Source of the DNA: an uncultured Gammaproteobacteria bacterium
GTDB taxonomy: Bacteria; Patescibacteriota; Patescibacteriia; Magasanikbacterales; UBA922
Assembly (NCBI GenBank): GCA_964519725.1
Contig: CAZFKS010000005.1
Span: forward strand, 6,024-70,023
Direction of reading: 5' to 3'
DNA length: 64,000 bases
Below are positions 2,839 through 53,488 of the stretch, piece after piece. A program made the translations under genes and the position numbers. The notes under the pieces were generated by a model that had not been told where the DNA came from, ran no database searches, and saw nothing but the letters and a program-made list of their open reading frames with translations. The stretch's first letter is position 1. Each line of letters begins with the position of its first letter.

Positions 2839-5800
2839 TTAGGCTTCTACATTTTCTTCTGTTCCCTCAGCTGCGACCTCAGCTGATTCACTAGGATTGC
2901 TTTCTTGTAATTCAACATCAAGGGCCAAACCTTTCAATTCGCGAACCAGAACGTTAAATGATTCTGGTAAGTTGATCTTGGTAATTTGTTCACCCTTAAT
3001 AATGGCTTCGTAGGCTTTAGCGCGACCAGGCACATCATCAGATTTAATGGTGAGAATTTCTTGGAGCGTGTGTGCTGCACCATATGCTTCGAGCGCCCAA
3101 ACTTCCATTTCACCAAACCGTTGACCACCAAATTGAGCCTTACCACCGAGCGGTTGTTGGGTAATCAAACTGTATGGACCAATTGAACGTTGGTGAATCT
3201 TGTCTTCAACCATGTGGTTGAGTTTGAGCATGTAGTTGTAACCAACGGTTGTTTTGTGGTCATATGGTTCACCAGTACGGCCATCGTACAGTTGTGATTG
3301 GCCATCAACTGGCAGACCAGCTTTCTTGAGTTCTTCAGAAATTTGTTCTTCAGTAATACCATTCAAAACTGGAGTCGCGGCTTTATAACCGTGCGCATTG
3401 GCAGCGAGACCAAGGTGGTTTTCCAAAAGCTGACCAAGGTTCATACGAGAAATAACACCCAGTGGTGAAAGAATCACATCAACTGGTGTACCGTCAGCCA
3501 GGAATGGCATGTCTTCAGCTGGAACAACGCGTGAAATCACACCTTTGTTACCGTGACGACCAGCCATCTTGTCACCAACCTGCACTTTACGCATGTCAGC
3601 GACCGTGACTTGAACTTGTTTGATCACACCTGGTTGCAATTTATCACCAGCATCAGCCGAGAACACTTTAACATCAATCACTTTTCCTTTTTCACCATGC
3701 TCCAAGTAGAGTGATGAGTCGCGCACGTCGCGGGCTTTTTCACCAAAGATAGCGCGGAGTAAGCGTTCTTCTGGGGTCAATTCAGTTTCACCTTTTGGTG
3801 TAATTTTACCAACCAAAATATCGCCAGAGTGAACTTCAGCTCCAATACGCACAATCCCTTCTGAATCAAGGTTCTTTAATTTTTCTTCACTTACGTTTGG
3901 AATGTCACTAGTGACAACTTCTGGTCCAAGTTTAGTTTCGCGAACATCAGTGGTGTAGTGTTCAATTTGAATTGAAGTGTAGCGGTCATTTTGCACCAAG
4001 CGTTCAGAAAGAATGATCGCGTCTTCGTAGTTATAACCTTCCCACACCATGTAAGCGACGAGCACGTTTTGACCAAGTGAAAGTTCAGCGTCTTTAATGG
4101 CCGGACCATCACAAATTGGTTGACCCTTTTTCACTTTTTGGCCAAGCACCACACTTGGTGTTTGGTTAATACAACTCGAAGCGTTAGAACGAATAAATTT
4201 GTGTAAGTGGTATTCGTAAACCTTGCCTTTTTTACCAGTAATTTGAATGTAATTACCAGTTACGGCAGTTACTTCACCATCTTCTTCAGCAGTGAAAACA
4301 TAACCACTAGAGAGAGCGGCGGCACGTTCCACACCGGTACCAACTAGTGGTGGATCAGCTTTAATACATGGCACAGCTTGGCGTTGCATGTTTGTACCCA
4401 TGAGCGCACGAGTCGCGTCATCGTGTTCGAGGAATGGAATCAAACTAGTGGCTACTGACAAAATTTGGTTTGAAGCTACGTCCAAATATTCAATATCACC
4501 AACATCAGCGTTGTTTGGTTGACCATGAACACGGGCTGGAACTTTACCTTGAATCAAGAAGCCTTTTTCATCACGAGGTAATTTGGCACTCGCAGTGGTT
4601 GTGCGTTCTTCTTGGAATGAGTTTAAATAAACCACTTCACTAGAAACGCGTGATTTAACGAGCACTTCAGTGAGATCTTTTTTAGCCGCTAATTTTTTGG
4701 CAATTTCAGCAGTGATAGTTTCACCAGCTTTTACAATGCCGCTAACATCTTCACGCGCAATTTCATTTTCCGTAAATTCAGCCTTGTTTGGTACACGGTT
4801 AATAACTTTGCGGTATGGGGTTTCCAGGAAACCAAACGCATTCATGCGCGCAAAGGTTGAAAGGTGGCCAACGAGACCAATATTTGGACCTTCTGGAGTC
4901 GCAATTGGACAAATACGACCATAGTGAGTGGTGTGCACGTCGCGAACTTCAAAGCCAGCGCGATCACGTGATAAACCACCAGGTCCAAGCGCTGATACGC
5001 GGCGTTTATGTTCAAGTTCGGCGAGCGGGTTAACTTGGTCCATGAATTGTGACAACTGTGAACTCATGAAGAATTCACGGATCACGCTAATCACAGGGCG
5101 AGCGTTGATTAATTTGTTTGGCACAATACTATCAATATCCATGGTACTCATGCGATCCTTGATAATACGTTCCATGCGAGCGAGACCAATCCGGAAGCGG
5201 TTTTGCACCAGTTCACCAACGGCGCGTACGCGACGGTTACCGAGATGGTCAATATCATCAGGAATTTCTTGGGTTACGTTGAGGCGAACTACTTCGCGGA
5301 GTACTTGCAGCACCTTATCAAGTGACAGCACCCGGTTTTCTTTGGCTGATAGGGCCTCATCACTCAAACCAAGGTTAAATTTGGTGTTAAATTTGTACAC
5401 ACCAACATTACCTAGATCATAGCGATCAAAGTTAAAGAACATGGCGTGGATCAAACTCTTAGCATTATCAGCCGTTGCCAGGTCACCCGGACGAATACGG
5501 CGGTAAACTTCGATCAAACCTTCTTCTTCATTACTTGAAGTGTCTTTTTTCAAAGTTTCTTCAATGTAATCAATGTTTGGGTGGTTATTAACGTCTTTAA
5601 ATGCCTCGCGAATGCCATCATCAGTTGACAAACCAAAAGCGCGGAGTAAGGCAGTGGCCGCCACTTTACGCTTGCGATCAACTTTTACCCAGAGAACATT
5701 ATTTTGGTCAGTTTCAACTTCGATCCAAGCACCACGGTTTGGAATAATTTTGGCACCATAGAAGTGGCGGCCGCGGAGATCATCAGCAGTAAAGAAAGCA

Positions 5801-6234
5801 CCAGGAGAGCGGATAAGCTGAGACACAACCACACGCTCAATCCCATTGATCATAAACGTACCCCGGTCAGTCATGAGCGGGATATCACCCAAATAAATTT
5901 CTTGCTTGTTAGATTTGCCAGTGCGCTTGTTCACCAATTTTACTTGCACGCGGAGTGGTGCCTCGTAAGTAACATTCTTATCGCGACACTTGGTTTCAGA
6001 AAATTTGGCTTCATCTAGGTAATATTCCTCAAAAAAGAGTTCCAAATCACGGCCAGTAAAGTCAGTTAATGGGGAAATTTCATCAAAAAGCTCCCGGATT
6101 CCTTCTTTTAGGAACCAGGCGTAAGAGGTTTTTTGTACCTCAATTAAGTCTGGGGTTTCAACCGCGTCACGGATGTCTGTAAAGAACTTCCGTTCCAGGG
6201 TTTTGAGCGCTTGTCGCTTATAAACTGGCTGCAT
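2839..6234 (-). CDS. rpoB: DNA-directed RNA polymerase subunit beta
   Basis: 1131-aa ORF with hallmark beta-subunit segments (GEMEVWALEAYGAAHTLQEILTIKSDD, RFGEMEVWALE, NMQRQAVP). Confidence 0.97.
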   Translation of the reverse strand: MQPVYKRQALKTLERKFFTDIRDAVETPDLIEVQKTSYAWFLKEGIRELFDEISPLTDFTGRDLELFFEEYYLDEAKFSETKCRDKNVTYEAPLRVQVKLVNKRTGKSNKQEIYLGDIPLMTDRGTFMINGIERVVVSQLIRSPGAFFTADDLRGRHFYGAKIIPNRGAWIEVETDQNNVLWVKVDRKRKVAATALLRAFGLSTDDGIREAFKDVNNHPNIDYIEETLKKDTSSNEEEGLIEVYRRIRPGDLATADNAKSLIHAMFFNFDRYDLGNVGVYKFNTKFNLGLSDEALSAKENRVLSLDKVLQVLREVVRLNVTQEIPDDIDHLGNRRVRAVGELVQNRFRIGLARMERIIKDRMSTMDIDSIVPNKLINARPVISVIREFFMSSQLSQFMDQVNPLAELEHKRRVSALGPGGLSRDRAGFEVRDVHTTHYGRICPIATPEGPNIGLVGHLSTFARMNAFGFLETPYRKVINRVPNKAEFTENEIAREDVSGIVKAGETITAEIAKKLAAKKDLTEVLVKSRVSSEVVYLNSFQEERTTTASAKLPRDEKGFLIQGKVPARVHGQPNNADVGDIEYLDVASNQILSVATSLIPFLEHDDATRALMGTNMQRQAVPCIKADPPLVGTGVERAAALSSGYVFTAEEDGEVTAVTGNYIQITGKKGKVYEYHLHKFIRSNASSCINQTPSVVLGQKVKKGQPICDGPAIKDAELSLGQNVLVAYMVWEGYNYEDAIILSERLVQNDRYTSIQIEHYTTDVRETKLGPEVVTSDIPNVSEEKLKNLDSEGIVRIGAEVHSGDILVGKITPKGETELTPEERLLRAIFGEKARDVRDSSLYLEHGEKGKVIDVKVFSADAGDKLQPGVIKQVQVTVADMRKVQVGDKMAGRHGNKGVISRVVPAEDMPFLADGTPVDVILSPLGVISRMNLGQLLENHLGLAANAHGYKAATPVLNGITEEQISEELKKAGLPVDGQSQLYDGRTGEPYDHKTTVGYNYMLKLNHMVEDKIHQRSIGPYSLITQQPLGGKAQFGGQRFGEMEVWALEAYGAAHTLQEILTIKSDDVPGRAKAYEAIIKGEQITKINLPESFNVLVRELKGLALDVELQESNPSESAEVAAEGTEENVEA

Positions 6235-6596
6235 AAATTAGGGAAAACAAAAAATTCCTTTGGGTAAAGGTTTATTATTTAAAGTGGATTGTAGTGAATT
6301 GTGAGCATCATGGAGGGTTACCGGACTAAGGTGGCCTGCGCCATAGCCAGTTACTTCCGAGCCTAGAAGCGTGCCAGGGAAGAAAACTGCCTCAAAACAT
6401 GACTTGAAAATCTTCACAAGCATACCTGAATTTTCAGGCGCTGTCAAGAAAGAACGGTAAAGCTAATTCTTGTCAAGAGTTTTAACTTTTTTGGCTTATT
6501 TAAGTGCTTTTTTCAAAAAACCCCCCTCTTAAAATACCTTTTTATTTTTGCACATTATCCACATTTTTTCTAAACACTGTTGATAACTTTTAATTA

Positions 6597-6625
6597 TTGA
6601 CCCGGTCATTACTTTTTATTAAAAT
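6597..6625 (+). promoter_or_regulatory. sigma70-like promoter (TTGACC, 17-nt spacer, TAAAAT) upstream of the GC-rich small ORF
   Basis: The -35 TTGACC at 6597-6602 and the -10 TAAAAT at 6620-6625 are separated by exactly 17 nt. They are followed by AGGAGG and then the ATG at 6656. Confidence 0.4.
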
Positions 6626-6655
6626 GATGCAGACATACTAGGAGGAATCGAGATC

Positions 6656-6958
6656 ATGACGCAGATTACGGCGTTCGAGATTATCCCTAACGGCAGGTGG
6701 TCACCGACCCTGATTGACATCCGGGCAGCCCAAAAGGCAAAAGGGCGGATTACCTTCCTGACTCGGATCTACGGAGGTCCAGAGCCAGTCCGCATCCCCT
6801 GTACCATCATCGAGGTTTCCTGCCCTGACCTGGCGGATGTGCCCGAAGAGTTCGTGTGCTGCACAGTCCAGGCCAAGGTGGATGGAAGTGCCCCAAAGTC
6901 ATTTATCATCACATATAATCCAGCCGACAAAAGGGGGGTCGGCATGGCCACTTCATGA
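6656..6958 (+). CDS. hypothetical 100-aa protein on a high-GC islet
   Basis: ORF with a canonical SD (ctAGGAGGaatcgagatcATG), GC-rich codons unlike its neighbours, followed by the hairpin at 6971-6997. No recognisable domain. Confidence 0.5.
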   Translation: MTQITAFEIIPNGRWSPTLIDIRAAQKAKGRITFLTRIYGGPEPVRIPCTIIEVSCPDLADVPEEFVCCTVQAKVDGSAPKSFIITYNPADKRGVGMATS

Positions 6959-6970
6959 TCTGAACCCATC

Positions 6971-6997
6971 CGTGCCCCGATGTTAATTCGGGGCACG
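6971..6997 (+). terminator. GC-rich hairpin after the 100-aa ORF
   Basis: Inverted repeat cgtgccccg ... cggggcacg with a 9-nt loop. A T-run follows about 20 nt downstream. Confidence 0.4.
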
Positions 6998-7075
6998 GCC
7001 ACACCACAGCATTCAGCTGTTTTTATTTTACAGTCAAAAAAATAAAAATATGTTACAATATACACACTAACTCCT

Positions 7076-9433
7076 ATGCCCCGTCGCGCTCAGGAAGAAT
7101 CTTCCCTTAACCCCACTTTATCCCGGGGGATTATTTTTATTGTTTTGGTGGTTTCGGCGTTCATTATTACACTGAGTTTTTTTGGTAAAGCTGGTCCAGT
7201 TGGGATCATGCTCAATGATTATGTACTCAGTTTTCTGTTTGGTGCGATTCGGTACACGGTTCCATTTATTATTTTAACTTTGGCCTGGTTTATTATTCGC
7301 GACACTGAGTATGATTACCGGCCAACCCATATTTTGGGCACTATTTTATTTTTTGTTTCACTCGGAAGTTTAGTTCACCTGCATTATCCACCAGAAGAAA
7401 TGTGGACCGCTGCGATTAATGGTCAAGGTGGTGGCGTGTTTGGGATGTTTGCCTGGGTTCTCAAAACATATTTAGGAACAATTGCTGGTGGCGCAATTTT
7501 GGTAGCACTTGGTTTAGTGTCAATTTTCCTGTTGTACAACACGGCAATTACACATTTTGTCATGCTCCACCGCGCGCTTTTGGCTGGCCTTGGTATGGTT
7601 GGAAACGGTCTCATTACCCTCTGCCGCAAATTATTTGTGCGCGAAAAATCTGGTGTAAATTTTAGTGTAAAAGGTGATTATTCCAAAGGTGATGAAGACG
7701 AGGAAGAAGTTGAAGAAGATGAAGACGCACCAGCTTTTGCCAAAAAGAGTTTAGCTGAAGAGGATGAGGAAGAAGATGAAGGCGAGGAGGATGAAGAAAT
7801 AGAAGATGAGGAAGAAGTTGAAGAAGATGAAGAGGAAGACGATCGGCCACCCCAAGGTGACGTGTGGTCAAAAAAAGTAGTGATTAAAAATTTACCACCA
7901 ATGGATTTACTGTCTGACAAACGTGGTAAACCAACTAGCGGTGATGTTGATGCGAATGCGGAAATTATTAAAAGCACCTTTGATCAATTTGGGATTGATG
8001 TCACTATGGGTGAAGTGCGCGTTGGCCCAACTGTAACGCAGTACACCATGAAACCAGCACCAGGTGTGAAATTGACCCGTATTACTGGACTTAGTCCAAA
8101 CCTCGCCCTCGCACTTGCCGCGCAAACCATTCGCATTGAAGCGCCAATTCCAGGCAAAGCTTTGGTTGGGGTTGAAGTACCAAACCAAAAAACCGCGATG
8201 GTCAGTATTAAGGAATTAATTGAAGACAAAGAATATCGTCAACGCCCACACAACATGATGATGGTACTAGGTAAAGATGTAGCCGGAAAAGTTTGGCTGG
8301 GTGAATTAACTCGCATGCCACACTTACTGATTGCTGGTGCGACTGGTTCTGGAAAAACTGTGTGTGTGAATACGATTATCATGGGTTTGTTGTATCAAAA
8401 CACCGCTGAAACACTGCGCTTTATCATGGTTGACCCCAAACGCGTGGAATTAACTTTGTACAATGGCATTCCACATTTGCTGACTCCAGTTATTACTAAC
8501 ACGCAAAAAACTGTTAATGCCCTCAAATGGACCATTGGTGAAATGGAACGCCGGTTTGAAGTTTTAGCAGCGGCTGGCAGTCGTGATATCAATTCTTACA
8601 ATCAAAAAAATCCGGCCAATAAATTACCGTACATTGTTTTTGTCATTGATGAATTGGCTGATTTAATGGCCACTGCGGCCAGTGAAGTTGAAGCTGGAAT
8701 TATTCGCATCGCCCAAATGGCGCGTGCGGTTGGTATTCATTTATTGGTGGCCACACAGCGTCCAAGTGTGGATGTCATTACTGGTTTAATGAAAGCGAAT
8801 ATTCCAGGACGCATCGCATTTTCGGTGGCATCAGCCATTGACTCACGCACCATTCTTGACTCACCAGGTGCTGAAAAATTACTTGGTCGCGGTGACATGT
8901 TATTCTCATCCGCTGACATGAGTAAACCAATGCGTATTCAAGGGGCCTATATTTCTGAAGAAGAAATGAAACGCATTGTGGAATATTTGAAAGGTGATGA
9001 AGAACCAGAATATGATGAATCAATTACTGGAGTTACCAATCAAAACGGTGGTGCCACCGGCAGTATGTTTGGTGGTCCAAGTGATGACCGCGACCCATTA
9101 TTTGAAGAAGCAAAAAAGTTTATTATTCAAGCTGGCAAAGCTTCAGCTTCGCTCTTGCAACGTCGGCTTAAAGTTGGGTATGCGCGCGCCGCTCGTTTAC
9201 TAGATGAATTAGAAGAAGCCGGCATTGTTGGACCAGCTGATGGTGCCAAACCACGTGAAATTTTGGCGACAGCGGCTGGATATGGTACAATGGATGCGCC
9301 TTCAGCCAGTTCTTTTGACCCAGTGACCGAAGAAGAAGCTGAAGACGAAGAAGATGAGGAAGAAGACCCTGAAGATGATGCAGTCGAAGATGAAATCGAC
9401 ACAGACGAACAAGGCAATCGGTTCCAACACTAA
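7076..9433 (+). CDS. ftsK: DNA translocase FtsK/SpoIIIE
   Basis: N-terminal TM helices and an acidic low-complexity linker. Walker A GATGSGKTVCVN, VDPKRVEL, LLVATQRPSVDVITG, and a C-terminal gamma winged-helix (LLQRRLKVGYARAARLLDELEEAGIVGP). Confidence 0.95.
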   Translation: MPRRAQEESSLNPTLSRGIIFIVLVVSAFIITLSFFGKAGPVGIMLNDYVLSFLFGAIRYTVPFIILTLAWFIIRDTEYDYRPTHILGTILFFVSLGSLVHLHYPPEEMWTAAINGQGGGVFGMFAWVLKTYLGTIAGGAILVALGLVSIFLLYNTAITHFVMLHRALLAGLGMVGNGLITLCRKLFVREKSGVNFSVKGDYSKGDEDEEEVEEDEDAPAFAKKSLAEEDEEEDEGEEDEEIEDEEEVEEDEEEDDRPPQGDVWSKKVVIKNLPPMDLLSDKRGKPTSGDVDANAEIIKSTFDQFGIDVTMGEVRVGPTVTQYTMKPAPGVKLTRITGLSPNLALALAAQTIRIEAPIPGKALVGVEVPNQKTAMVSIKELIEDKEYRQRPHNMMMVLGKDVAGKVWLGELTRMPHLLIAGATGSGKTVCVNTIIMGLLYQNTAETLRFIMVDPKRVELTLYNGIPHLLTPVITNTQKTVNALKWTIGEMERRFEVLAAAGSRDINSYNQKNPANKLPYIVFVIDELADLMATAASEVEAGIIRIAQMARAVGIHLLVATQRPSVDVITGLMKANIPGRIAFSVASAIDSRTILDSPGAEKLLGRGDMLFSSADMSKPMRIQGAYISEEEMKRIVEYLKGDEEPEYDESITGVTNQNGGATGSMFGGPSDDRDPLFEEAKKFIIQAGKASASLLQRRLKVGYARAARLLDELEEAGIVGPADGAKPREILATAAGYGTMDAPSASSFDPVTEEEAEDEEDEEEDPEDDAVEDEIDTDEQGNRFQH

Positions 9434-11334: not shown

Positions 11335-11343
11335 AGTGAAAAT

Positions 11344-11380
11344 AAAAAAATCCTCTGTCAGTCGGCAGAGGATTTTTTTA
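11344..11380. terminator. bidirectional intrinsic terminator
   Basis: Hairpin aatcctctg ... cagaggatt flanked by A and T runs, between convergent recA and the SpoIID-like gene. Confidence 0.6.
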
Positions 11381-13231
11381 TTAGTAAATCCGGTGTAATT
11401 CAACGCCTGTGTAATAATATTTAATTAGTTGTACCCAATCAAGTTTTTCTTCTTCGGCTTTAATGGCCGCGTCACGCTGAGACATGCCAATTCCATGACC
11501 AAACATTGATTTATTATCGCGCTCATCATAAATCGCTGGGACTGAAACGAGCCAAGGTCGCTTTGCACCCCAAACCTCAGCCCAACTGCGCGTACGGCCA
11601 TCACTATTACCAAAATATGGTGTAATCACGACTTCATTATTATAGGTTACCATTTGTCCTCGAGTGGTATTTACGGCATCAATAAAGCGCGGCATAGCCG
11701 GTTCATTGGCTGCGCCTAAGTAGAGCTGATCACCAGTAGTAGCCACCACATCAAAGAACCGACTATCGTGTTTACTGGTAGTCTGAATGTAGTAAGCATA
11801 AGTCCGCTGGGCCACGGCCTGGGCTTTTAGATATTCAATTGGCGAACTATTCGCATTTTCCCCCATCCCAATCATGTAATCTTCAAAATTCAAATCATTA
11901 ATTAAATACAAGGAATTATTTTGGTCCTGAGCCTGACGCAATTCAAGTCCGCCGCGGTATTGATTGTAATTTCGACTGCGGCCAGAAATTTTACGCTCGT
12001 AATTAGAAATAGTAATAATCGCGTGTGGGTTAGTGGCTGGTTCAACCCGAATAAAAGTGCCTGAGGTGACACTAATTCCCTCAGCTTCAAATTTATAGGT
12101 TCCGCTTTTGAAACTTAATGTACCCACTGTGTTACGTGGTAAGGTGGCGAGAATGCCGGTTGCATCAACCACATTATAATCATCTTCAGCTGAAATTACT
12201 TTGGCCAGTCCTCCAGTTGGTTCTTTCCACAGTCCAACCCGAATGCGTGGCTCAGTGGCTAAGCGTGGTGATTCAGTTAAAAAGCCATAACCAGGCGCGG
12301 CTGTACCAGCAAATGGCTCAGTGTAATCACCTGGCGCATCAGCCGTCACGGTAATTGGAATTTTAATATCAGCGGTAGTTGGATTTTCCCCTTTAAAAGT
12401 CACTTTAAATTTAGCTTCATAGGTTCCAGTTTTAGGGGGCGCGCGGAAAGTAATTTGGTCACGCCAAAATTGGTCTTTGGGCACGCTAATGGTTTTATCT
12501 AAGGCCACTTGTCGACTAGACCAATTCACATCAGCCACATTGGTTGGTCCAGTTTGTTCAATAGTGGCCGCAGTCCAGGCAGTTTTCCCAATGTTTTGGT
12601 AACCAAATAACAACACTACTGGTTCACCCCCAGTGGTGTTCACGGTTTTTGGATTTAAAAAAATACGATTAGCGGTGCTATCAGTACTCGCACTTGGTTC
12701 AGTCACCACACTACTACTTGGCGGTGCCGTTACTTTAATTTTAACAAAAAAGTAACCATTTTTTACCCAGGAATAATTTTCTGAAGCCAGATAAAATTTT
12801 TCCGTATATTCACCAGGCTTCAAAGTGGCCGGCGCTTTAAATGTCACGGTTAATTTACCAGTTTGTCCAGGTTTAACCGTAGTCGCAATTTTTCCAGTTT
12901 GTTTGGCGGTGGTCCAATCTGACGCAAAAAACGCAGATTTTCGGTCGCGCGGTTCCATGGTGTAGGCCGAAATGTATTGGCCAGTGGAGGACCAAGTAGC
13001 GGTACCAGTATTTTTGAAAGTGAAAGTGATCGCCTTGCTAGTCCCAGCCTGGATTGTAACTGGGTCAGGCGCCGATTGGCTGACCAAACTAGCTGAATAA
13101 GCAGGATCTTTAACCGTGACTTGAGGCGTGGCCGCGTGCACCAAACTAGGAAAAATAGCTGCACCAAGCCAGAAAAAAAGTGAAAGAAAAGTTAATTTAT
13201 TTCGACGCATAGGTAGTTTGTATTTTACCAA
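11381..13231 (-). CDS. secreted SpoIID/LytB-domain protein with N-terminal tandem Ig-like repeats
   Basis: Signal peptide (MRRNKLTFLSLFFWLGAAIFPSLVHAA; alternative start at 13210). The C-terminus carries the SpoIID/LytB signature (YLKAQAVAQRTYAYY ... TPYFGNSDGRTRSWAEVWG). Repeated TFKNTGTATW-like beta-sandwich segments precede it. Confidence 0.8.
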   Translation of the reverse strand: MVKYKLPMRRNKLTFLSLFFWLGAAIFPSLVHAATPQVTVKDPAYSASLVSQSAPDPVTIQAGTSKAITFTFKNTGTATWSSTGQYISAYTMEPRDRKSAFFASDWTTAKQTGKIATTVKPGQTGKLTVTFKAPATLKPGEYTEKFYLASENYSWVKNGYFFVKIKVTAPPSSSVVTEPSASTDSTANRIFLNPKTVNTTGGEPVVLLFGYQNIGKTAWTAATIEQTGPTNVADVNWSSRQVALDKTISVPKDQFWRDQITFRAPPKTGTYEAKFKVTFKGENPTTADIKIPITVTADAPGDYTEPFAGTAAPGYGFLTESPRLATEPRIRVGLWKEPTGGLAKVISAEDDYNVVDATGILATLPRNTVGTLSFKSGTYKFEAEGISVTSGTFIRVEPATNPHAIITISNYERKISGRSRNYNQYRGGLELRQAQDQNNSLYLINDLNFEDYMIGMGENANSSPIEYLKAQAVAQRTYAYYIQTTSKHDSRFFDVVATTGDQLYLGAANEPAMPRFIDAVNTTRGQMVTYNNEVVITPYFGNSDGRTRSWAEVWGAKRPWLVSVPAIYDERDNKSMFGHGIGMSQRDAAIKAEEEKLDWVQLIKYYYTGVELHRIY

Positions 13232-23414: not shown

Positions 23415-23425
23415 AGTTTGTAAAT

Positions 23426-23460
23426 AAAAAAGCCTCCGTTAGCTGATGGAGGCTTTTTTA
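23426..23460. terminator. bidirectional intrinsic terminator
   Basis: aaaaagcctcc-gttagctgat-ggaggcttttt between convergent genes. Confidence 0.6.
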
Positions 23461-24216
23461 TTACTTACCTTCGTTTTGATCACAGTAATAATCAATAGCT
23501 TTATGCACAAAAGCAGCTAATCCTGGTCTGAATTTTTCGTAATATTCAGTGTACCGCGGATCATCTTCGTACATTTTTCCTAAATTACGGAACATTTCGT
23601 ACGAACAGTCATAGAAAAAATTCACGCCATCATGACTTTTTTTAATCAGTGCCTGAACGGTTTCACTTTCAATTGGCAAATCCATGGCCGCAGCCAGCGC
23701 CTCCATGTGCTTTTTGCCATCGTCTTTTAATTTCTGCATGTCAGCTTTGGTCATTTTACTAACCTTGGCCTGTGATTGTTTGTACGCATCAGTATTCCCC
23801 CATTTTTCCTTGGCTTCCTGGGCATACTCTTTCATGTCTTCGTCGGCAAAAGCATCGTAAAGTTCTTCGTCCTTCATATTAGTTTCGTGGTTAATTTTTT
23901 TAATTGTGCTATCAATGGTATGAATTAATTTGCTCAGCCGCTTTTTCTTAAGTTCAATCAATTTGCGATGATCTTGTAAAGCCGTAGCTAAGTCAAAATA
24001 CGGCGAGTTTAAAATTCGCTTAATATCACTGAGGGCAAAATCCAATTCTCGAAAAAAGAGGATTTGTTGTAGTTTGAGCAGCTCAGCCTCTTCATAAACC
24101 CGATACCCATTTGACTGGACGCGACTAGGACTAAGTAACCCAATCTCATCATAATAATGCAGTGTGCGCACACTGGTTCCAGCTAGTTTGGCTAGGGTCT
24201 GAACAGTATAATTCAT
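23461..24216 (-). CDS. MerR-family regulator with a TipAS-like C-terminal effector domain
   Basis: N-terminal MerR HTH (YTVQTLAKLAGTSVRTLHYYDEIGLL) and a C-terminal TipAS/Mta-like region. Confidence 0.85.
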   Translation of the reverse strand: MNYTVQTLAKLAGTSVRTLHYYDEIGLLSPSRVQSNGYRVYEEAELLKLQQILFFRELDFALSDIKRILNSPYFDLATALQDHRKLIELKKKRLSKLIHTIDSTIKKINHETNMKDEELYDAFADEDMKEYAQEAKEKWGNTDAYKQSQAKVSKMTKADMQKLKDDGKKHMEALAAAMDLPIESETVQALIKKSHDGVNFFYDCSYEMFRNLGKMYEDDPRYTEYYEKFRPGLAAFVHKAIDYYCDQNEGK

Positions 24217-42793: not shown

Positions 42794-42819
42794 AAAAAAT
42801 CCCCACGTGGGGATTTTTT
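42794..42819. terminator. intrinsic terminator
   Basis: aaaaaatcccc-acgt-ggggatttttt. Confidence 0.6.
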
Positions 42820-42869
42820 AATAAAAATGGTTGGGCGGCGAGCGGGCGCGTCGTCGTCCAACGCGCGGC

Positions 42870-43124
42870 TCACCGCCTAGTTCTCGGCGAAGAGGGCGGG
42901 GGCAATTCCACGGCCGGACCCAGAGGATTTACCTCGGAGATCCGGTAGTTGTTGGCCTGCACATAACTCGGAGGCACACTCTTCAGCGCCTCCGCGTGAG
43001 TGGTTAGTCCACTTTTGTGCAAGACCCACTTGCTTTTCGGATCGCTCCTGACCTCCACCTTCCAGGTGGAGGGTTCTGGAATTGGCTGGGCCGGGATAAA
43101 CTTCAAAGGCTTCTTGGTGCTCAC
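42870..43124 (-). CDS. hypothetical 84-aa protein on the high-GC islet abutting tRNA-Leu (GTG start)
   Basis: GC-rich ORF preceded by a strong SD (ccAAGGAGAtcgtcGTG) and followed by a GC-rich imperfect hairpin. No recognised domain. An alternative overlapping 99-aa frame exists but has a poorer start context. Confidence 0.45.
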   Translation of the reverse strand: MSTKKPLKFIPAQPIPEPSTWKVEVRSDPKSKWVLHKSGLTTHAEALKSVPPSYVQANNYRISEVNPLGPAVELPPPSSPRTRR

Positions 43125-43185
43125 GACGATCTCCTTGGACAGACCAAATCTGTCTTAGTTTGTACTTATTTATCATATTTTAAAT

Positions 43186-45539: not shown

Positions 45540-46244
45540 ATGGACCTAAAAGGACAAGTACGGAAAATAGGGCGGCCAATTTGGCGACATGCGGCTTTGC
45601 ACCGGATTTCTCAGGGGGAATTTACCCCTGACGAGATGCGGCGCTTTGTCCTGCAGCGCCATGCTTTAGCCACAGGTTTTGTCGGACTCCTCAAGAGCAT
45701 CATCCGGAATACGGACGACGAGGCTCTCAGAGAGTGTGTCTGGCAAAACCTGGCGGACGAGACCGGTCACGGCGTAGAGCGTGATTCGCATGCCACCTGG
45801 CGTGCGGATTATCTGCGCGGACTTGGGCTTGACCCGCCCTACACAGCACCGCTCTGGAGCGGCACCAGGCACTACAATGAGGTTTTGCGCGAGCTCAGCT
45901 CCGCCAATCCTCTCGTCAGTGCTGGTGCACTTTGGCTCCTGGAGCGGAGCCTTCCACCTGAATTTGCGCGAATCCGGCGCGGACTCGAGCGGGTGTTCCC
46001 AAACACCTTTGTGCTCAGTCTGGCTGATACAGCCGAAGTGCGTGCTCGCAAAGAGCGCACCCGGTTGTATCTCGTGGATCACGAACGGCACGATGCCGCG
46101 TACCACGAGCCTGACTTGCGACGTGTGCTTACCCGTCCCGACTGGGACGGACGTGCGTGCGCGTCAATTCTCTTAGGCGCTGAGCTCGTCGCCGCTGCCA
46201 AAGTGAAGTTCTACGACTCGGTCGCAGACTCGCTTGGCAAGTAA
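45540..46244 (+). CDS. hypothetical high-GC protein (234 aa), possibly heme-oxygenase-like/PqqC-TenA-like helical fold
   Basis: Strong SD (GGGAGGGGagaATG). GC3-rich codons and an all-helical, Arg-rich composition. The NLADETGHG segment is weakly reminiscent of iron-containing redox/PqqC-like proteins. Followed by the GC hairpin at 46251-46270. Confidence 0.55.
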   Translation: MDLKGQVRKIGRPIWRHAALHRISQGEFTPDEMRRFVLQRHALATGFVGLLKSIIRNTDDEALRECVWQNLADETGHGVERDSHATWRADYLRGLGLDPPYTAPLWSGTRHYNEVLRELSSANPLVSAGALWLLERSLPPEFARIRRGLERVFPNTFVLSLADTAEVRARKERTRLYLVDHERHDAAYHEPDLRRVLTRPDWDGRACASILLGAELVAAAKVKFYDSVADSLGK

Positions 46245-46294: not shown

Positions 46295-46321
46295 AAAAAA
46301 TCCCCGCCAGGGGATTTTTTA
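46295..46321. terminator. bidirectional intrinsic terminator between the convergent high-GC genes
   Basis: aaaaaatcccc-gcca-ggggatttttt. An upstream GC hairpin ccccggtcgcaaggccgggg and the palindrome ctttgcaaag also lie here. Confidence 0.55.
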
Positions 46322-46418
46322 TTTTAAACCAACTTAATATTCATTTAAAAAAAATAAATACTCAGTTAGGTTGCGCGGCCGATCCTTTTCGGACCAGTCA
46401 CCGCGCTTCCCTCCTGCG

Positions 46419-46994
46419 CTAGTCTTTGGTGATGGGGTCTGGGTCCCCTTCAGCCATTCCGTAGCGCTTTTGACCGCGATCAGTCTTGTGGTCGATGGTG
46501 CCATGTGACACTTCAACCACTGTGGCGCTGCAGAGCGGTCGCAGAACCAGCTGAACCGGTGAGCGATCGGGCCCAAACGTCTGGGGAACCTCCCCAACGT
46601 TCAGAACCGAGAGCACTGCGCCTTTCCAGTCGGCTGGGTCCGGGCGGTAGTTCTGGTCGAACACCACACCGGCCGGAATCACGAGCCGTTTTTTGGCCGG
46701 ACCAGTCTTGGCCACGACCTCGGCGAACCACCCTGGCGGTGGAACAAAGGTGAGTCCGGTGGCGAACTCGGCCGCTTGTCCGGGAAGGACTGTGAACTCC
46801 TCCACAGGAAACACGTCCCAGCCCGAGTCTGAGGCATGGGATTTGGTGGGAATTCTTCCCCCCATTTCCCGAGCCCTCGGGTGAAGGCTGAATTTGAAGA
46901 CCGCAGGGCCCTTTTCCTCGAGCCGAGAAATTCTCCAGTTGATCCAGCCGAATCCAAACACCACGACCGCTGTAACGACACTTTCAAAGACCAT
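46419..46994 (-). CDS. hypothetical high-GC protein (191 aa) with dUTPase/dCTP-deaminase-like beta-barrel motifs and an N-terminal TM segment
   Basis: SD cGGAGGGAGaaaagccATG at MVFESVV. Segments SDSGWDV, VAKTGPAKK, GVVFDQNYRPD and RSPVQLVL align with dUTPase motifs I, III, IV and V in order. GC3-rich. Confidence 0.5.
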   Translation of the reverse strand: MVFESVVTAVVVFGFGWINWRISRLEEKGPAVFKFSLHPRAREMGGRIPTKSHASDSGWDVFPVEEFTVLPGQAAEFATGLTFVPPPGWFAEVVAKTGPAKKRLVIPAGVVFDQNYRPDPADWKGAVLSVLNVGEVPQTFGPDRSPVQLVLRPLCSATVVEVSHGTIDHKTDRGQKRYGMAEGDPDPITKD

Positions 46995-47085: not shown

Positions 47086-47118
47086 ATAAAAAATCCCCCG
47101 ATTCCGGAGGATTTTTTA
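47086..47118. terminator. bidirectional intrinsic terminator
   Basis: aaaaaatcccccg-attc-cggaggatttttt between the dUTPase-like gene and the nrdJ 3' end. Confidence 0.55.
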
Positions 47119-53167: not shown

Positions 53168-53488
53168 ATGATCCCCGGAAGGCACAGTTTTTCCCTGGAA
53201 GAAGGAGCGGAGCTGACGCTCCCAGCCTGGGCAGAGAGAACCATCTTCGCTTCCAAGCATGCGGACCGGTTCCCAGATACGCCGTGCGTGCTGCCCGTGC
53301 GCCAGTACGCTAGTGGGCTCTATGAGCCTGTGGCGCCGCGCCGAAAGGGTGGTACCAAGGAGATCGGACGCCATCTGTTCATCCCCAGCGGCGTAAAGGC
53401 GGGGGAAACCCTGTACATCCTGTGGGTGGACGACCGCTCTGCGGCCGCAGTCCGCAAGAAGGATCTACCCTCTCGCCCCCTCTGCTGA
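53168..53488 (+). CDS. hypothetical high-GC protein (106 aa)
   Basis: GC-rich ORF beginning right after the DUF1294 stop, with an SD (cgaAAGAGGttccaaccATG). Followed by GC-rich inverted repeats and a host-type terminator. No recognised domain. Confidence 0.45.
   Translation: MIPGRHSFSLEEGAELTLPAWAERTIFASKHADRFPDTPCVLPVRQYASGLYEPVAPRRKGGTKEIGRHLFIPSGVKAGETLYILWVDDRSAAAVRKKDLPSRPLC

What the first reader, a model, noticed from the sequence alone, without database searches (positions are those of the whole stretch)
6597..6997. High-GC islet 1: self-contained promoter-SD-ORF-hairpin unit between rpoB and ftsK
Between rpoB and ftsK, where GC is very low, sits a 100-aa ORF with GC-rich codons. It has a near-consensus sigma70 promoter (TTGACC-17-TAAAAT), a canonical AGGAGG Shine-Dalgarno and a GC-clamp hairpin. 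Native genes in this window largely lack SD sequences: recA, ftsK, ahcY, ruvB, efp, rpoB and nrdJ show none. The unit looks like an imported cassette.
Basis: seen in the sequence. Interest (0 to 1): 0.6.

Follow-up and report, generated by a model that had tools for sequence, protein, structure and literature searches.

The report
Foreign-type orphan gene in variable slot
A small GC-rich gene with its own expression signals and no relatives in public databases sits in a gap between rpoB and ftsK that holds different, mostly GC-rich, accessory DNA in almost every related genome; this is an ordinary kind of gene-gain hotspot, seen here in a little-studied candidate-phylum bacterium.

Summary
Window 6640-6998 is a sharply bounded 56% GC block in a 43% GC genome of a Candidatus Magasanikbacteria MAG. 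The block holds an AGGAGG Shine-Dalgarno site, a 100-codon ORF (6656-6958, GC3 0.65) and an 11-bp perfect GC hairpin. An AT-rich sigma70-type promoter lies upstream and a T-run terminator downstream. Native genes have almost no SD.

The protein is an orphan: it matched only itself among 5.8 billion proteins. It gave no hit in Pfam, PHROGs, PADLOC, NCBIfam or PDB, and no confident fold.

Ten related genomes show that the interval between a conserved DnaA-box pair and the ftsK promoter is hypervariable. It is empty in one relative. Others hold unrelated GC-rich small ORFs, a truncated transporter fragment or larger genes.

"Imported unit" is therefore supported, but with three corrections:
- The promoter lies outside the GC block.
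- No mobilisation machinery is present, so this is not an integron cassette or a transposon.
- High GC does not prove a recent arrival. Two other GC islets in the window have GC-rich orthologues at the same position in relatives, although synonymous sites are saturated.

The occupant of the same slot in L034 may be a very distant homologue.

Verdict: a new member of a known kind, of moderate-to-low interest.

The parts
6555..6586 (.). Left boundary of the variable slot: a pair of DnaA-box-like motifs, TTATCCACA (6555-6563, +) and TTATCAACA (6578-6586, -). Conservation runs on to ...TGTTGATAACT at 6588.
   Evidence: motif hits. (alignment: invariant in window, L030, L032 and L033, one change in L034). 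(also present in L031, L036, L038, L039).
6589..7043 (+). Variable segment (455 bp) that replaces about 23 bp in the empty-site relative L032. It contains the whole transcription unit.
   Evidence: The window aligns with L032 up to TGTTGATAA and again from AAAAATATGTTACAATAT. Nothing in between aligns with any relative.
6597..6625 (+). Sigma70-type promoter TTGACC-17-TAAAAT, lying in 25-35% GC DNA outside the GC-rich block.
   Evidence: 10/12 match. (local GC).
6640..6998 (+). GC-rich block of foreign compositional type, running from the SD to the end of the hairpin.
6640..6645 (+). Shine-Dalgarno AGGAGG, 10 nt upstream of the ATG.
6656..6958 (+). ORF100, an orphan 100-aa protein (MTQITAFEIIPNGRW...GVGMATS). 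It is predicted to be mostly beta-strand and has no signal peptide or transmembrane segment by eye.
   Evidence: It is the only frame open across the whole GC block.
6970..6998 (+). GC-rich hairpin: 11-bp perfect stem CCGTGCCCCGA / TCGGGGCACGG with a 7-nt loop and no T-run.
7006..7029 (+). Second, weak hairpin (ACAGC-attca-GCTGT) followed by TTTTTATTTT. It is terminator-like and would insulate ftsK from read-through.
7044..7061 (+). Right boundary of the slot: the conserved ftsK core promoter AAAAATATGTTACAATAT (extended -10). The ftsK ATG is at 7076.
   Evidence: identical 18-mer in L032.

Best explanation
Window 6589-7043 is an accessory gene unit of foreign compositional type. It occupies a gene-turnover hotspot between two core genes of a Candidatus Magasanikbacteria (Patescibacteria/CPR) genome.

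The hotspot is bounded on the left by the conserved rpoB leader and a DnaA-box pair. On the right it is bounded by the ftsK core promoter.

The unit is a single-gene transcription unit:
- an AT-rich sigma70-type promoter;
- a short leader of about 25 nt;
- a strong SD that drives initiation on a GC-rich mRNA, in a genome whose own genes initiate without SD;
- a 100-codon ORF for a soluble, beta-rich orphan protein;
- a GC-rich stem-loop without a T-run, which I read as a donor-style terminator or 3' stabiliser;
- a T-run hairpin that shields ftsK from read-through.

The most likely route of arrival and turnover uses no mobile-element machinery. Exogenous DNA is taken up and integrated or swapped by recombination anchored in the conserved flanks, as described for hotspots that lack mobile elements.

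Shown: the composition, the signals, orphan status, the empty site, hypervariability of the slot, and the absence of mobile-element hallmarks.

Inferred: that the ORF is expressed, the roles of the two hairpins, the recombination route, and any function of the protein. My guess is a strain-specific accessory or interaction protein, possibly with an Ig-like beta-sandwich fold.
For: Composition and codon usage lie far outside the native range, and the block edges are sharp.

SD use separates GC-rich genes from native ones. SD is present here and in nearly every other GC-rich gene examined in the window and relatives, but is essentially absent from 42 native genes.

The orthologous junction is empty in L032. 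Different occupants are found in L030, L033, L034, L031/L036, L043, L038 and L039 (L037 also has different genes upstream of ftsK, but its contig shows no rpoB leader). The FtsK tree of these genomes is star-like at 86-92% identity.

The L038 slot holds a GC-rich truncated fragment of a POT-family transporter. This shows that foreign DNA is captured there without regard to function.

There is no homologue in 5.8 billion proteins or 1.84 billion cluster representatives, and none in phage, plasmid or IMG/VR collections.

No recombinase appears among the called neighbours. There are no terminal repeats or target duplication and no second copy.

An independent assembly is identical.

Literature: genomic islands and transferred genes are common in Patescibacteria (PMC12455944). 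Many hotspots between core genes lack mobile elements and turn over by flanking homologous recombination (PMC5635113).
Against: No donor can be named, because nothing similar exists in very large databases. That is odd for a gene taken from a cellular donor.

No transcript or peptide evidence exists. With no orthologue, purifying selection cannot be tested.

A 100-codon open frame in 56% GC DNA is not rare by itself. I estimate about a 2% chance per frame.

High GC in this lineage can persist. Islets 2 and 3a keep GC3 near 0.6 in syntenic orthologues although dS is saturated, and they show no excess of GC-to-AT changes. Composition therefore does not date the arrival.

A weak colinear similarity to the L034 occupant (Smith-Waterman z = 5.9) and a shared C-terminal Y-x5-6-G[VI]G[MI] motif hint at common ancestry rather than an independent import.
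Confidence: 0.62

Rival explanations
1. The gene is an old resident that evolves very fast. On this view ORF100, the L034 ORF (110 aa) and perhaps the L030 ORF (105 aa) are extremely diverged alleles of one small-protein gene. That gene entered the slot before the genus radiated, has been kept GC-rich and SD-dependent, evolves under diversifying selection, and was lost in L032 and replaced in others.
For: All three occupy the same slot in the same orientation and have the same layout: promoter, ORF of 100-110 aa, GC hairpin, T-run hairpin.

The window and L034 proteins give a Smith-Waterman score of 47, with z = 5.9 and 0 of 300 shuffles reaching it. The similarity is colinear over 84 residues.

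All three proteins end in Y-x5-6-G[VI]G[MI]. L030 ranks 4th of 501 against an HMM built from the other two.

Islets 2 and 3a show that GC-rich, SD-led genes with conserved UTR hairpins can persist in this lineage.
Against: BLASTP finds nothing between any pair. tblastn finds nothing, and there is no DNA similarity in the ORF or the 3' region.

At the same genomic distance islet 2 keeps 57% identity. Vertical descent would therefore need dN above dS while three reading frames stayed open.

The other relatives carry clearly unrelated content in the slot.
Confidence: 0.22
2. The block is inert captured DNA. A fragment of foreign GC-rich DNA was integrated by illegitimate recombination, the open frame is fortuitous or decaying, and no functional protein is made.
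For: The L038 slot holds a truncated transporter fragment. ORF100 is a complete orphan. AlphaFold confidence is low, with pLDDT 56. No selection test is possible.
Against: The edges of the GC block coincide with the SD on one side and the post-stop hairpin on the other. ORF100 is the only frame open across the whole block. GC3 exceeds GC1 and GC2, as in real GC-rich genes. A promoter, a correctly spaced SD and an ATG are all present.
Confidence: 0.1
3. The unit is a defined mobile cassette, such as an integron gene cassette, a MITE or IS derivative, or a phage moron inside a prophage remnant.
For: It is a small ORF followed by an imperfect-palindrome-like hairpin, and its composition differs from its neighbours. 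A 9-nt inverted repeat brackets the start and stop codons.
Against: The hairpin has no attC-type R''/R' motifs (RYYYAAC...GTTRRRY), by reading the sequence. The unit has its own promoter.

There is no integrase or transposase among the neighbours. There are no terminal inverted repeats or target duplication at 6589/7043. It is single-copy.

There are no PHROG hits or phage matches, and the flanks are rpoB and ftsK. About 0.8 inverted repeats of this size are expected by chance in the region.
Confidence: 0.03
4. The block is a structured non-coding RNA or a cis-regulatory element, for example one controlling ftsK, rather than a protein gene. Alternatively it is an assembly chimera.
For: GC-rich islands in AT-rich genomes are often RNA genes. 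The block carries a strong hairpin and lies directly upstream of ftsK.
Against: There is no Rfam match even at E <= 10. GC shows codon-position periodicity and an SD-ATG is present. The block is not conserved in relatives, whereas ftsK is. An independent assembly is identical and both flanks are contiguous with native genes.
Confidence: 0.03

Closest known systems
Hotspots of horizontal gene transfer between conserved core genes that lack mobile-element genes (Oliveira et al. 2017, PMC5635113)
   Same: The interval is flanked by the same core genes (rpoB and ftsK) across genomes. Accessory content differs in nearly every genome, including an empty state. [quoted passage not shown]
   Different: The evidence here comes from about 10 metagenomic contigs of an uncultured CPR genus, not from a pangenome. 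Recombination at the flanks was not measured. The occupants are unusually small (single ORFs of 85-110 aa) and nearly all are GC-rich and SD-led.
Phage 'morons' (PMC3594210: GC content differs from surrounding genes; own promoter and terminator; present in one genome and absent at the same place in relatives)
   Same: It is an autonomous promoter-gene-terminator unit with deviant GC, added between two conserved genes and absent from a close relative.
   Different: It is not in a phage or prophage. The flanks are rpoB and ftsK, and there are no PHROG or phage hits. So it works like a moron but is not a member of that class.
Horizontally acquired genes and genomic islands in Patescibacteria (PMC12455944)
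   Same: It is an accessory gene of deviant composition in a streamlined CPR genome. That study attributes up to 13% of genome length to HGT.
   Different: That study found mostly Patescibacteria-to-Patescibacteria transfers with identifiable homologues. ORF100 has no homologue at all, and its composition points outside the lineage.
Integron gene cassettes
   Same: It is a small orphan ORF followed by a palindromic element.
   Different: There is no attC consensus, no intI or attI, and no array. The unit also has its own promoter.

Membership tests
HGT hotspot between core genes (no mobile element) | Same flanking core genes in related genomes | tested here: met
   The rpoB leader and ftsK flank the slot in L030, L032, L033, L034, L031, L036, L038, L039 and L043.
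HGT hotspot between core genes (no mobile element) | High turnover: different accessory content between close relatives, including an empty site | tested here: met
   At least 8 different contents were seen in 10 relatives, and the site is empty in L032.
HGT hotspot between core genes (no mobile element) | No integrase or transposase; raised homologous recombination in flanking core genes | tested here: inconclusive
   No recombinase Pfam family appears among the called neighbours. Recombination in rpoB and ftsK was not measured.
Phage moron | Own promoter and terminator; GC differs from neighbours; absent from related genomes at the same position | tested here: met
   The signals are sequence predictions only.
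Phage moron | Located inside a phage or prophage genome | tested here: not met
   The flanks are rpoB and ftsK. There are no PHROG hits and no phage or IMG/VR match.
Integron gene cassette | attC site with R''(RYYYAAC)...R'(GTTRRRY) bracketing an imperfect palindrome at the 3' end | tested here: not met
   Sequence 6959-7005 was read directly. The stem is a perfect 11-bp GC clamp. The only GTT lies in the loop (GTTAATT), and there is no RYYYAAC at the stem base.
Integron gene cassette | Promoterless ORF in an array next to intI/attI | tested here: not met
   The unit has its own promoter, it is a single unit, and no integrase is among the neighbours.
IS / MITE-type transposable element | Terminal inverted repeats, target-site duplication, multiple copies | tested here: not met
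   One search found only A/T-run matches near the borders. One search found no second copy in the window or in 43 loci.
Known RNA family (Rfam) | Covariance-model match | tested here: not met
   Searches found nothing in 6200-7100 apart from a chance hit at E = 6.3 in the AT-rich terminator.
PKD / Ig-like beta-sandwich domain proteins | Significant match to a domain profile or a solved fold | tested here: inconclusive
   Pfam gives no hit. The only hints are weak. HMMER hits to two giant repeat proteins owe their E-values to six near-identical repeats. A protocadherin chain matches at E = 0.63. The AF2 model is all-beta but has pLDDT 56, and Foldseek finds nothing.
Anti-phage defence / toxin-antitoxin systems | Match to a known defence or TA protein model; partner gene | tested here: not met
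   PADLOC and NCBIfam give no hit, and it is a single gene.

The most novel reading that the evidence does not exclude
ORF100 may be one allele of a hypervariable small-protein locus, with the L034 and L030 occupants as extremely diverged alleles that share the C-terminal Y-x5-6-G[VI]G[MI] motif. That locus would belong to a lineage-specific class of genes that are persistently GC-rich, SD-dependent and bracketed by conserved UTR hairpins, in an AT-rich and otherwise SD-free CPR genome. In such a class, composition is held at its own equilibrium by selection or by continual exchange with a GC-rich partner such as the host, and does not decay. These genes would then mark the symbiont's host-interaction or conflict repertoire, and would show two translation-initiation regimes within one cell.
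Probability: 0.15. Interest if true: 0.65.

Novelty: new member of a known kind. Interest (0 to 1): 0.35.

Why it matters
On its own this is one more strain-specific orphan gene in a gene-turnover hotspot, which is expected biology.

It is useful as a clean, well-bounded example in a Patescibacteria genome, with an empty site in a relative. It shows that even the rpoB-ftsK interval of a streamlined symbiont accepts foreign DNA without any mobile-element genes.

The wider pattern it belongs to is worth a dedicated look. Nearly every GC-rich gene checked in this genus carries a canonical SD, while native genes carry none. At least two such genes stay GC-rich, and keep their UTR hairpins, across a divergence at which synonymous sites are saturated. 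That bears on how SD-independent lineages express foreign genes. It also bears on whether compositional "amelioration" can be assumed when dating transfers.

Tried and rejected
**Homology and fold searches for ORF100**
- The word-index search of 5.8 billion proteins found only the query itself.
- The full HMMER scan of 1.84 billion representatives found only two giant repeat proteins. Their E-values come from six near-identical weak repeat matches, so I rejected them as evidence of homology.
- Pfam, PHROGs, PADLOC, NCBIfam and PDB sequence searches all gave nothing.
- tblastn against phage and plasmid collections found nothing, and the IMG/VR scan found nothing.
- The single-sequence AlphaFold model has pLDDT 56, and Foldseek against PDB gave no match with E below 0.5.

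**Searches for more relatives**
- The first genome-contig scan with FtsK gave only relatives at 64% identity or less, with no rpoB-ftsK synteny, so it was uninformative for the junction.
- An exact 42-mer of the rpoB leader found nothing in JGI metagenomes. A looser pattern gave one locus, L043.

**Comparisons among slot occupants**
- BLASTP, tblastn and blastn between slot occupants gave nothing. Only Smith-Waterman with shuffling gave a signal, and only for the window against L034.

**Readings considered and rejected**
- Integron cassette, MITE or IS, ncRNA and assembly chimera were rejected for the reasons given under the rival explanations.
- The antisense ORF 6769-7065 (98 aa) was rejected. 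It has no codon-position GC signal, it runs through both terminator hairpins, and it has no Pfam hit.
- oriC at this junction was considered because of the DnaA boxes and a local GC-skew minimum. It is not supported: the window has only three perfect boxes in 64 kb and the skew changes sign several times.
- The AAAAAATCCCC...GGGGATTTTTT terminators next to the other islets look like native-type terminators, not part of the imported DNA.

Full report
**1. What is in the sequence**

The window averages 43.4% GC. The ORF at 6656-6958 has 55.8% GC, with 0.51/0.50/0.65 at codon positions 1/2/3.

I cut 42 native genes into 148 in-frame pieces of the same length. None reaches the ORF's GC (maximum 0.512) or its GC3 (maximum 0.535); the z-scores are 3.8 and 4.9. 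The ORF's fit to native codon usage is 0.47, against 0.71 +/- 0.04 for native genes.

At 40-nt resolution the GC-rich block runs from about 6640 to about 7000, with abrupt edges. It therefore starts at the AGGAGG (6640-6645, 10 nt before the ATG) and ends with the hairpin at 6970-6998. That hairpin has an 11-bp perfect stem and is the longest perfect GC-rich hairpin in the 64 kb.

The TTGACC-17-TAAAAT promoter (6597-6625, 10 of 12 consensus positions) lies in AT-rich DNA outside the block. So does the second small hairpin with a T-run (7006-7029).

Of 11 AGGAGG sites in the window, only this one precedes an ORF longer than 20 codons. Thirty-nine of 42 native genes have no SD-like motif upstream, and the other three have only weak 4-mers.

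An independent Logan assembly of run SRR11567520 is base-for-base identical over 6.2 kb spanning the unit.

**2. The organism**

FtsK, encoded next door, has its best named relatives in Candidatus Magasanikbacteria, a Patescibacteria/CPR lineage.

**3. The protein is an orphan**

- A search of 5.8 billion clustered proteins returned only the query itself.
- A full HMMER scan of 1.84 billion cluster representatives added only two giant repeat proteins. One is a PKD-repeat protein. Their nominal E-values come from six near-identical copies of one weak 35-40-residue match. I do not accept this as homology.
- Pfam, PHROGs, PADLOC, NCBIfam and PDB sequences gave nothing. The best PDB hit is a protocadherin chain at E = 0.63.
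- tblastn against phage and plasmid collections and an IMG/VR scan gave nothing.
- The single-sequence AlphaFold model is all-beta but has low confidence (pLDDT 56), and Foldseek found nothing.
- The weak hints all point to a beta-sandwich, but that remains a lead only.

**4. The junction in relatives**

I fetched contigs for the closest FtsK relatives. Their FtsK proteins are 86-92% identical and form a star-like tree. Two further outgroups sit at about 74%.

The roughly 270 bp next to rpoB is conserved at 76-84% in all of them. It ends in a pair of DnaA-box-like motifs, TTATCCACA...TGTTGATAA(CT). On the other side, the ftsK core promoter AAAAATATGTTACAATAT is shared with L032.

Everything between these two boundaries differs from genome to genome:

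| Locus | Content of the slot |
|---|---|
| L032 | About 23 bp, i.e. an empty site |
| Window | ORF100 |
| L030 | A GC-rich 105-aa ORF |
| L034 | A GC-rich 110-aa ORF on the + strand |
| L033 | A 90-aa ORF on the other strand |
| L031, L036, L043 | An aminotransferase gene, alone or with a GC-rich sigma factor or 85-aa ORF |
| L038 | A GC-rich 117-aa fragment plus two genes |
| L039 | A 751-aa gene at 60% GC plus DUF4325 and HATPase genes |

L037 also carries an aminotransferase gene and a GC-rich 232-aa ORF upstream of ftsK, but its contig shows no rpoB leader motif.

The only PDB matches of the L038 fragment are to the N-terminal TM1 motif of POT peptide transporters. The table rests.

The variable segment in the window is 6589-7043. 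This is a gene-turnover hotspot.

**5. No mobilisation machinery**

- No integrase or transposase appears among the neighbours.
- There are no terminal inverted repeats or target duplication at the borders.
- There is no second copy anywhere in the window or in 43 fetched loci.
- The hairpin has no attC-type consensus (sequence read directly).
- There is no Rfam match, even at E <= 10.
- A 9-nt perfect inverted repeat (AGATCATGA / TCATGATCT) brackets the start and stop codons. About 0.8 such pairs are expected by chance in the region, and the placement was noticed after the fact.

**6. The wider pattern**

The window has three more GC islets.

Nearly every GC-rich gene I examined has a GGAGG-type SD 4-11 nt before its start; the one clear exception is the 225-aa gene in L037, whose start may be mis-assigned. 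Those with SD are islets 1, 2, 3a, 3b and 4, and GC-rich genes in L030, L031, L037, L039 and L043. The four small ORFs and the islet-3 genes in this window are each followed by a GC-rich hairpin without a T-run, and then by a native-type terminator flanked by A-run and T-run.

Islets 2 and 3a are not strain-specific. L040 and L041 carry GC-rich orthologues at the same position, at 57-69% amino-acid identity. These orthologues have conserved 5'-UTR hairpins, SDs and 3' hairpins, with compensatory changes in the stems. Synonymous sites of these genes and of the native neighbours are saturated, with dS of 1.1 or more.

In islet 3a, lineage-specific synonymous changes are balanced: GC-to-AT 16, AT-to-GC 17. 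Simple decay towards the native GC3 of 0.38 predicts roughly 2.5:1. A control on native genes shows that the parsimony bias runs towards the rarer state, which makes this result conservative. With only 33 changes it is still only suggestive.

The consequence is that in this genus a GC-rich, SD-led composition marks a class of genes of foreign type, not necessarily a recent arrival. For islet 1, the case for accessory status rests on the comparative data in section 4.

**7. Are the slot occupants related?**

BLASTP, tblastn and blastn find nothing between them.

Smith-Waterman with shuffling gives z = 5.9 for the window against L034. None of 300 shuffles reaches the observed score. The match is colinear over 84 residues at about 20% identity.

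All three + strand occupants (window, L030, L034) end in Y-x5-6-G[VI]G[MI]. L030 ranks 4th of 501 against an HMM built from the other two.

I regard distant family membership as possible, at about 0.2-0.3. If it is real, the likelier cause is that old alleles or family members are swapped into the hotspot. Vertical descent would need dN above dS with three frames kept open.

**8. How it most likely works**

Shown: a compositionally foreign SD-ORF-hairpin block sits between an AT-rich promoter and a T-run terminator, in a slot that turns over between close relatives and has no mobile-element genes.

Inferred:
- Transcription starts near 6632.
- The strong SD recruits ribosomes to a GC-rich, structure-prone mRNA, in a cell whose own AT-rich leaders do not need SD. 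The conservation of SDs in the islet 2 and 3a orthologues argues that SDs are functional here.
- The GC stem-loop stabilises or terminates the transcript, and the T-run hairpin protects ftsK from read-through.
- Arrival and replacement occur by uptake of DNA and recombination anchored in the conserved flanks, as proposed for hotspots lacking mobile elements (PMC5635113). This is consistent with frequent HGT in Patescibacteria (PMC12455944).
- The protein's function is unknown. My best guess is a soluble beta-rich accessory protein.

**9. Comparison with what is known, and verdict**

The unit behaves like a phage moron: its own promoter and terminator, deviant GC, and absence from relatives (PMC3594210). 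It is not in a phage, so it is not a member of that class.

It fits the definition of an occupant of an HGT hotspot between core genes. It is not an integron cassette, an IS or MITE, or a known RNA.

Novelty: a new member of a known kind. Interest is moderate to low for the unit itself, at 0.35. The genus-wide split between GC-rich, SD-led, hairpin-bracketed genes and SD-free native genes, and the apparent persistence of that composition, is the part that deserves follow-up.

Noticed in passing
window 6300-6412, minus strand (rpoB 5' UTR): There is a highly conserved structured leader upstream of rpoB. Its 42-nt core (GGAGGGTTACCGGACTAAGGTGGCCTGCGCCATAGCCAGTTA on the + strand) is identical in the five closest relatives aligned, and the shorter 15-mer core is shared by nine. 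A diverged form is present at 74% FtsK identity. A central hairpin changes sequence but keeps its pairing. An outer helix pairs a GAGG with a CCUCC. There is no Rfam match at E <= 10. It may be an undescribed rpoB leader motif of Magasanikbacteria.
   Followed up: partly
window 6555-6563 (+) and 6578-6586 (-): A pair of DnaA-box-like motifs (one perfect TTATCCACA) is conserved in all relatives and forms the exact left edge of the hypervariable slot. There are only three perfect boxes in 64 kb, so this is not an obvious oriC. A local cumulative GC-skew minimum lies near 7000.
   Followed up: partly
window 42794-43176 (islet 2; ORF 42870-43124, minus strand): This is a GC-rich 84-aa ORF next to a tRNA gene. 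It has a 5'-UTR hairpin, an AAGGAG SD, a long GC hairpin overlapping the stop codon and a native-type terminator. L040 (945-1196) carries a syntenic GC-rich orthologue at 57% identity, with the UTR hairpins conserved through compensatory changes. It is a real, conserved, fast-evolving orphan gene.
   Followed up: partly
window 45540-46244 (+) and 46419-46994 (-) (islet 3): These are a GC-rich haem-oxygenase-like gene (PF14518; only 7 homologues in 5.8 billion proteins, at 59-68% identity, all unnamed) and a dUTPase-like gene with an N-terminal hydrophobic segment. Both have a GGAGG SD and a GC hairpin at the 3' end. The first is syntenic in L040, L041 and L042. The second is absent from L041 and L042, where nrdJ follows directly.
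   Followed up: partly
window 53168-53488 (+) with hairpins to about 53570 (islet 4): This is a GC-rich (63%) 106-aa orphan ORF with the same layout: a small 5' hairpin, an AGAGG SD, a GC hairpin after the stop, then a terminator flanked by A-run and T-run. It is inserted between a small membrane-protein gene and an acetolactate-synthase-like gene.
   Followed up: no
window-wide, and loci L030, L031, L037, L039, L040, L041, L043: Nearly every GC-rich gene examined has a canonical SD 4-11 nt before its start, whereas native genes have essentially none. SDs are conserved between orthologues although synonymous sites are saturated. This suggests two translation-initiation regimes in one genome.
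   Followed up: partly
window 45540-46244 versus L040 3615-4319 and L041 388-1095: Lineage-specific synonymous changes in the GC-rich islet 3a gene are balanced (GC-to-AT 16, AT-to-GC 17), although native GC3 is about 0.38. There is no sign of amelioration, so the high GC appears to be maintained. The sample is small and the method is parsimony on saturated sites.
   Followed up: partly
window 6651-6659 and 6953-6961: A perfect 9-nt inverted repeat, AGATCATGA / TCATGATCT, brackets the start and stop codons of ORF100 exactly. About 0.8 such pairs are expected by chance in the 650-nt region, so its significance is unclear.
   Followed up: no
L038 4051-4404 (minus strand): The same rpoB-ftsK slot in a more distant relative holds a 60% GC, 117-aa ORF. 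Its only PDB matches are to the N-terminal TM1 motif (ExxERFxYYG) of POT peptide transporters, at E = 0.01-0.07. It is a truncated fragment of a foreign cellular gene.
   Followed up: partly
L039 754-4426: In another relative the slot holds a 751-aa gene at 60% GC with no Pfam hit, plus DUF4325 and HATPase_c genes. This may be a defence-type or signalling module.
   Followed up: no
L034 2829-3179: The public gene call at this locus is on the minus strand (116 aa). The plus-strand ORF (2844-3176, GC3 0.73) fits the promoter, a GGAGG before an in-frame GTG, and the downstream hairpins better. The call is probably on the wrong strand.
   Followed up: partly
window 42794-42819, 46298-46324, 47088-47118, 11340-11382, 23420-23464: Native terminators form a recognisable type: an A-run, a short GC stem (often TCCCC...GGGGA) and a T-run, apparently bidirectional. 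They are distinct from the T-less GC hairpins that directly follow the GC-rich genes.
   Followed up: no
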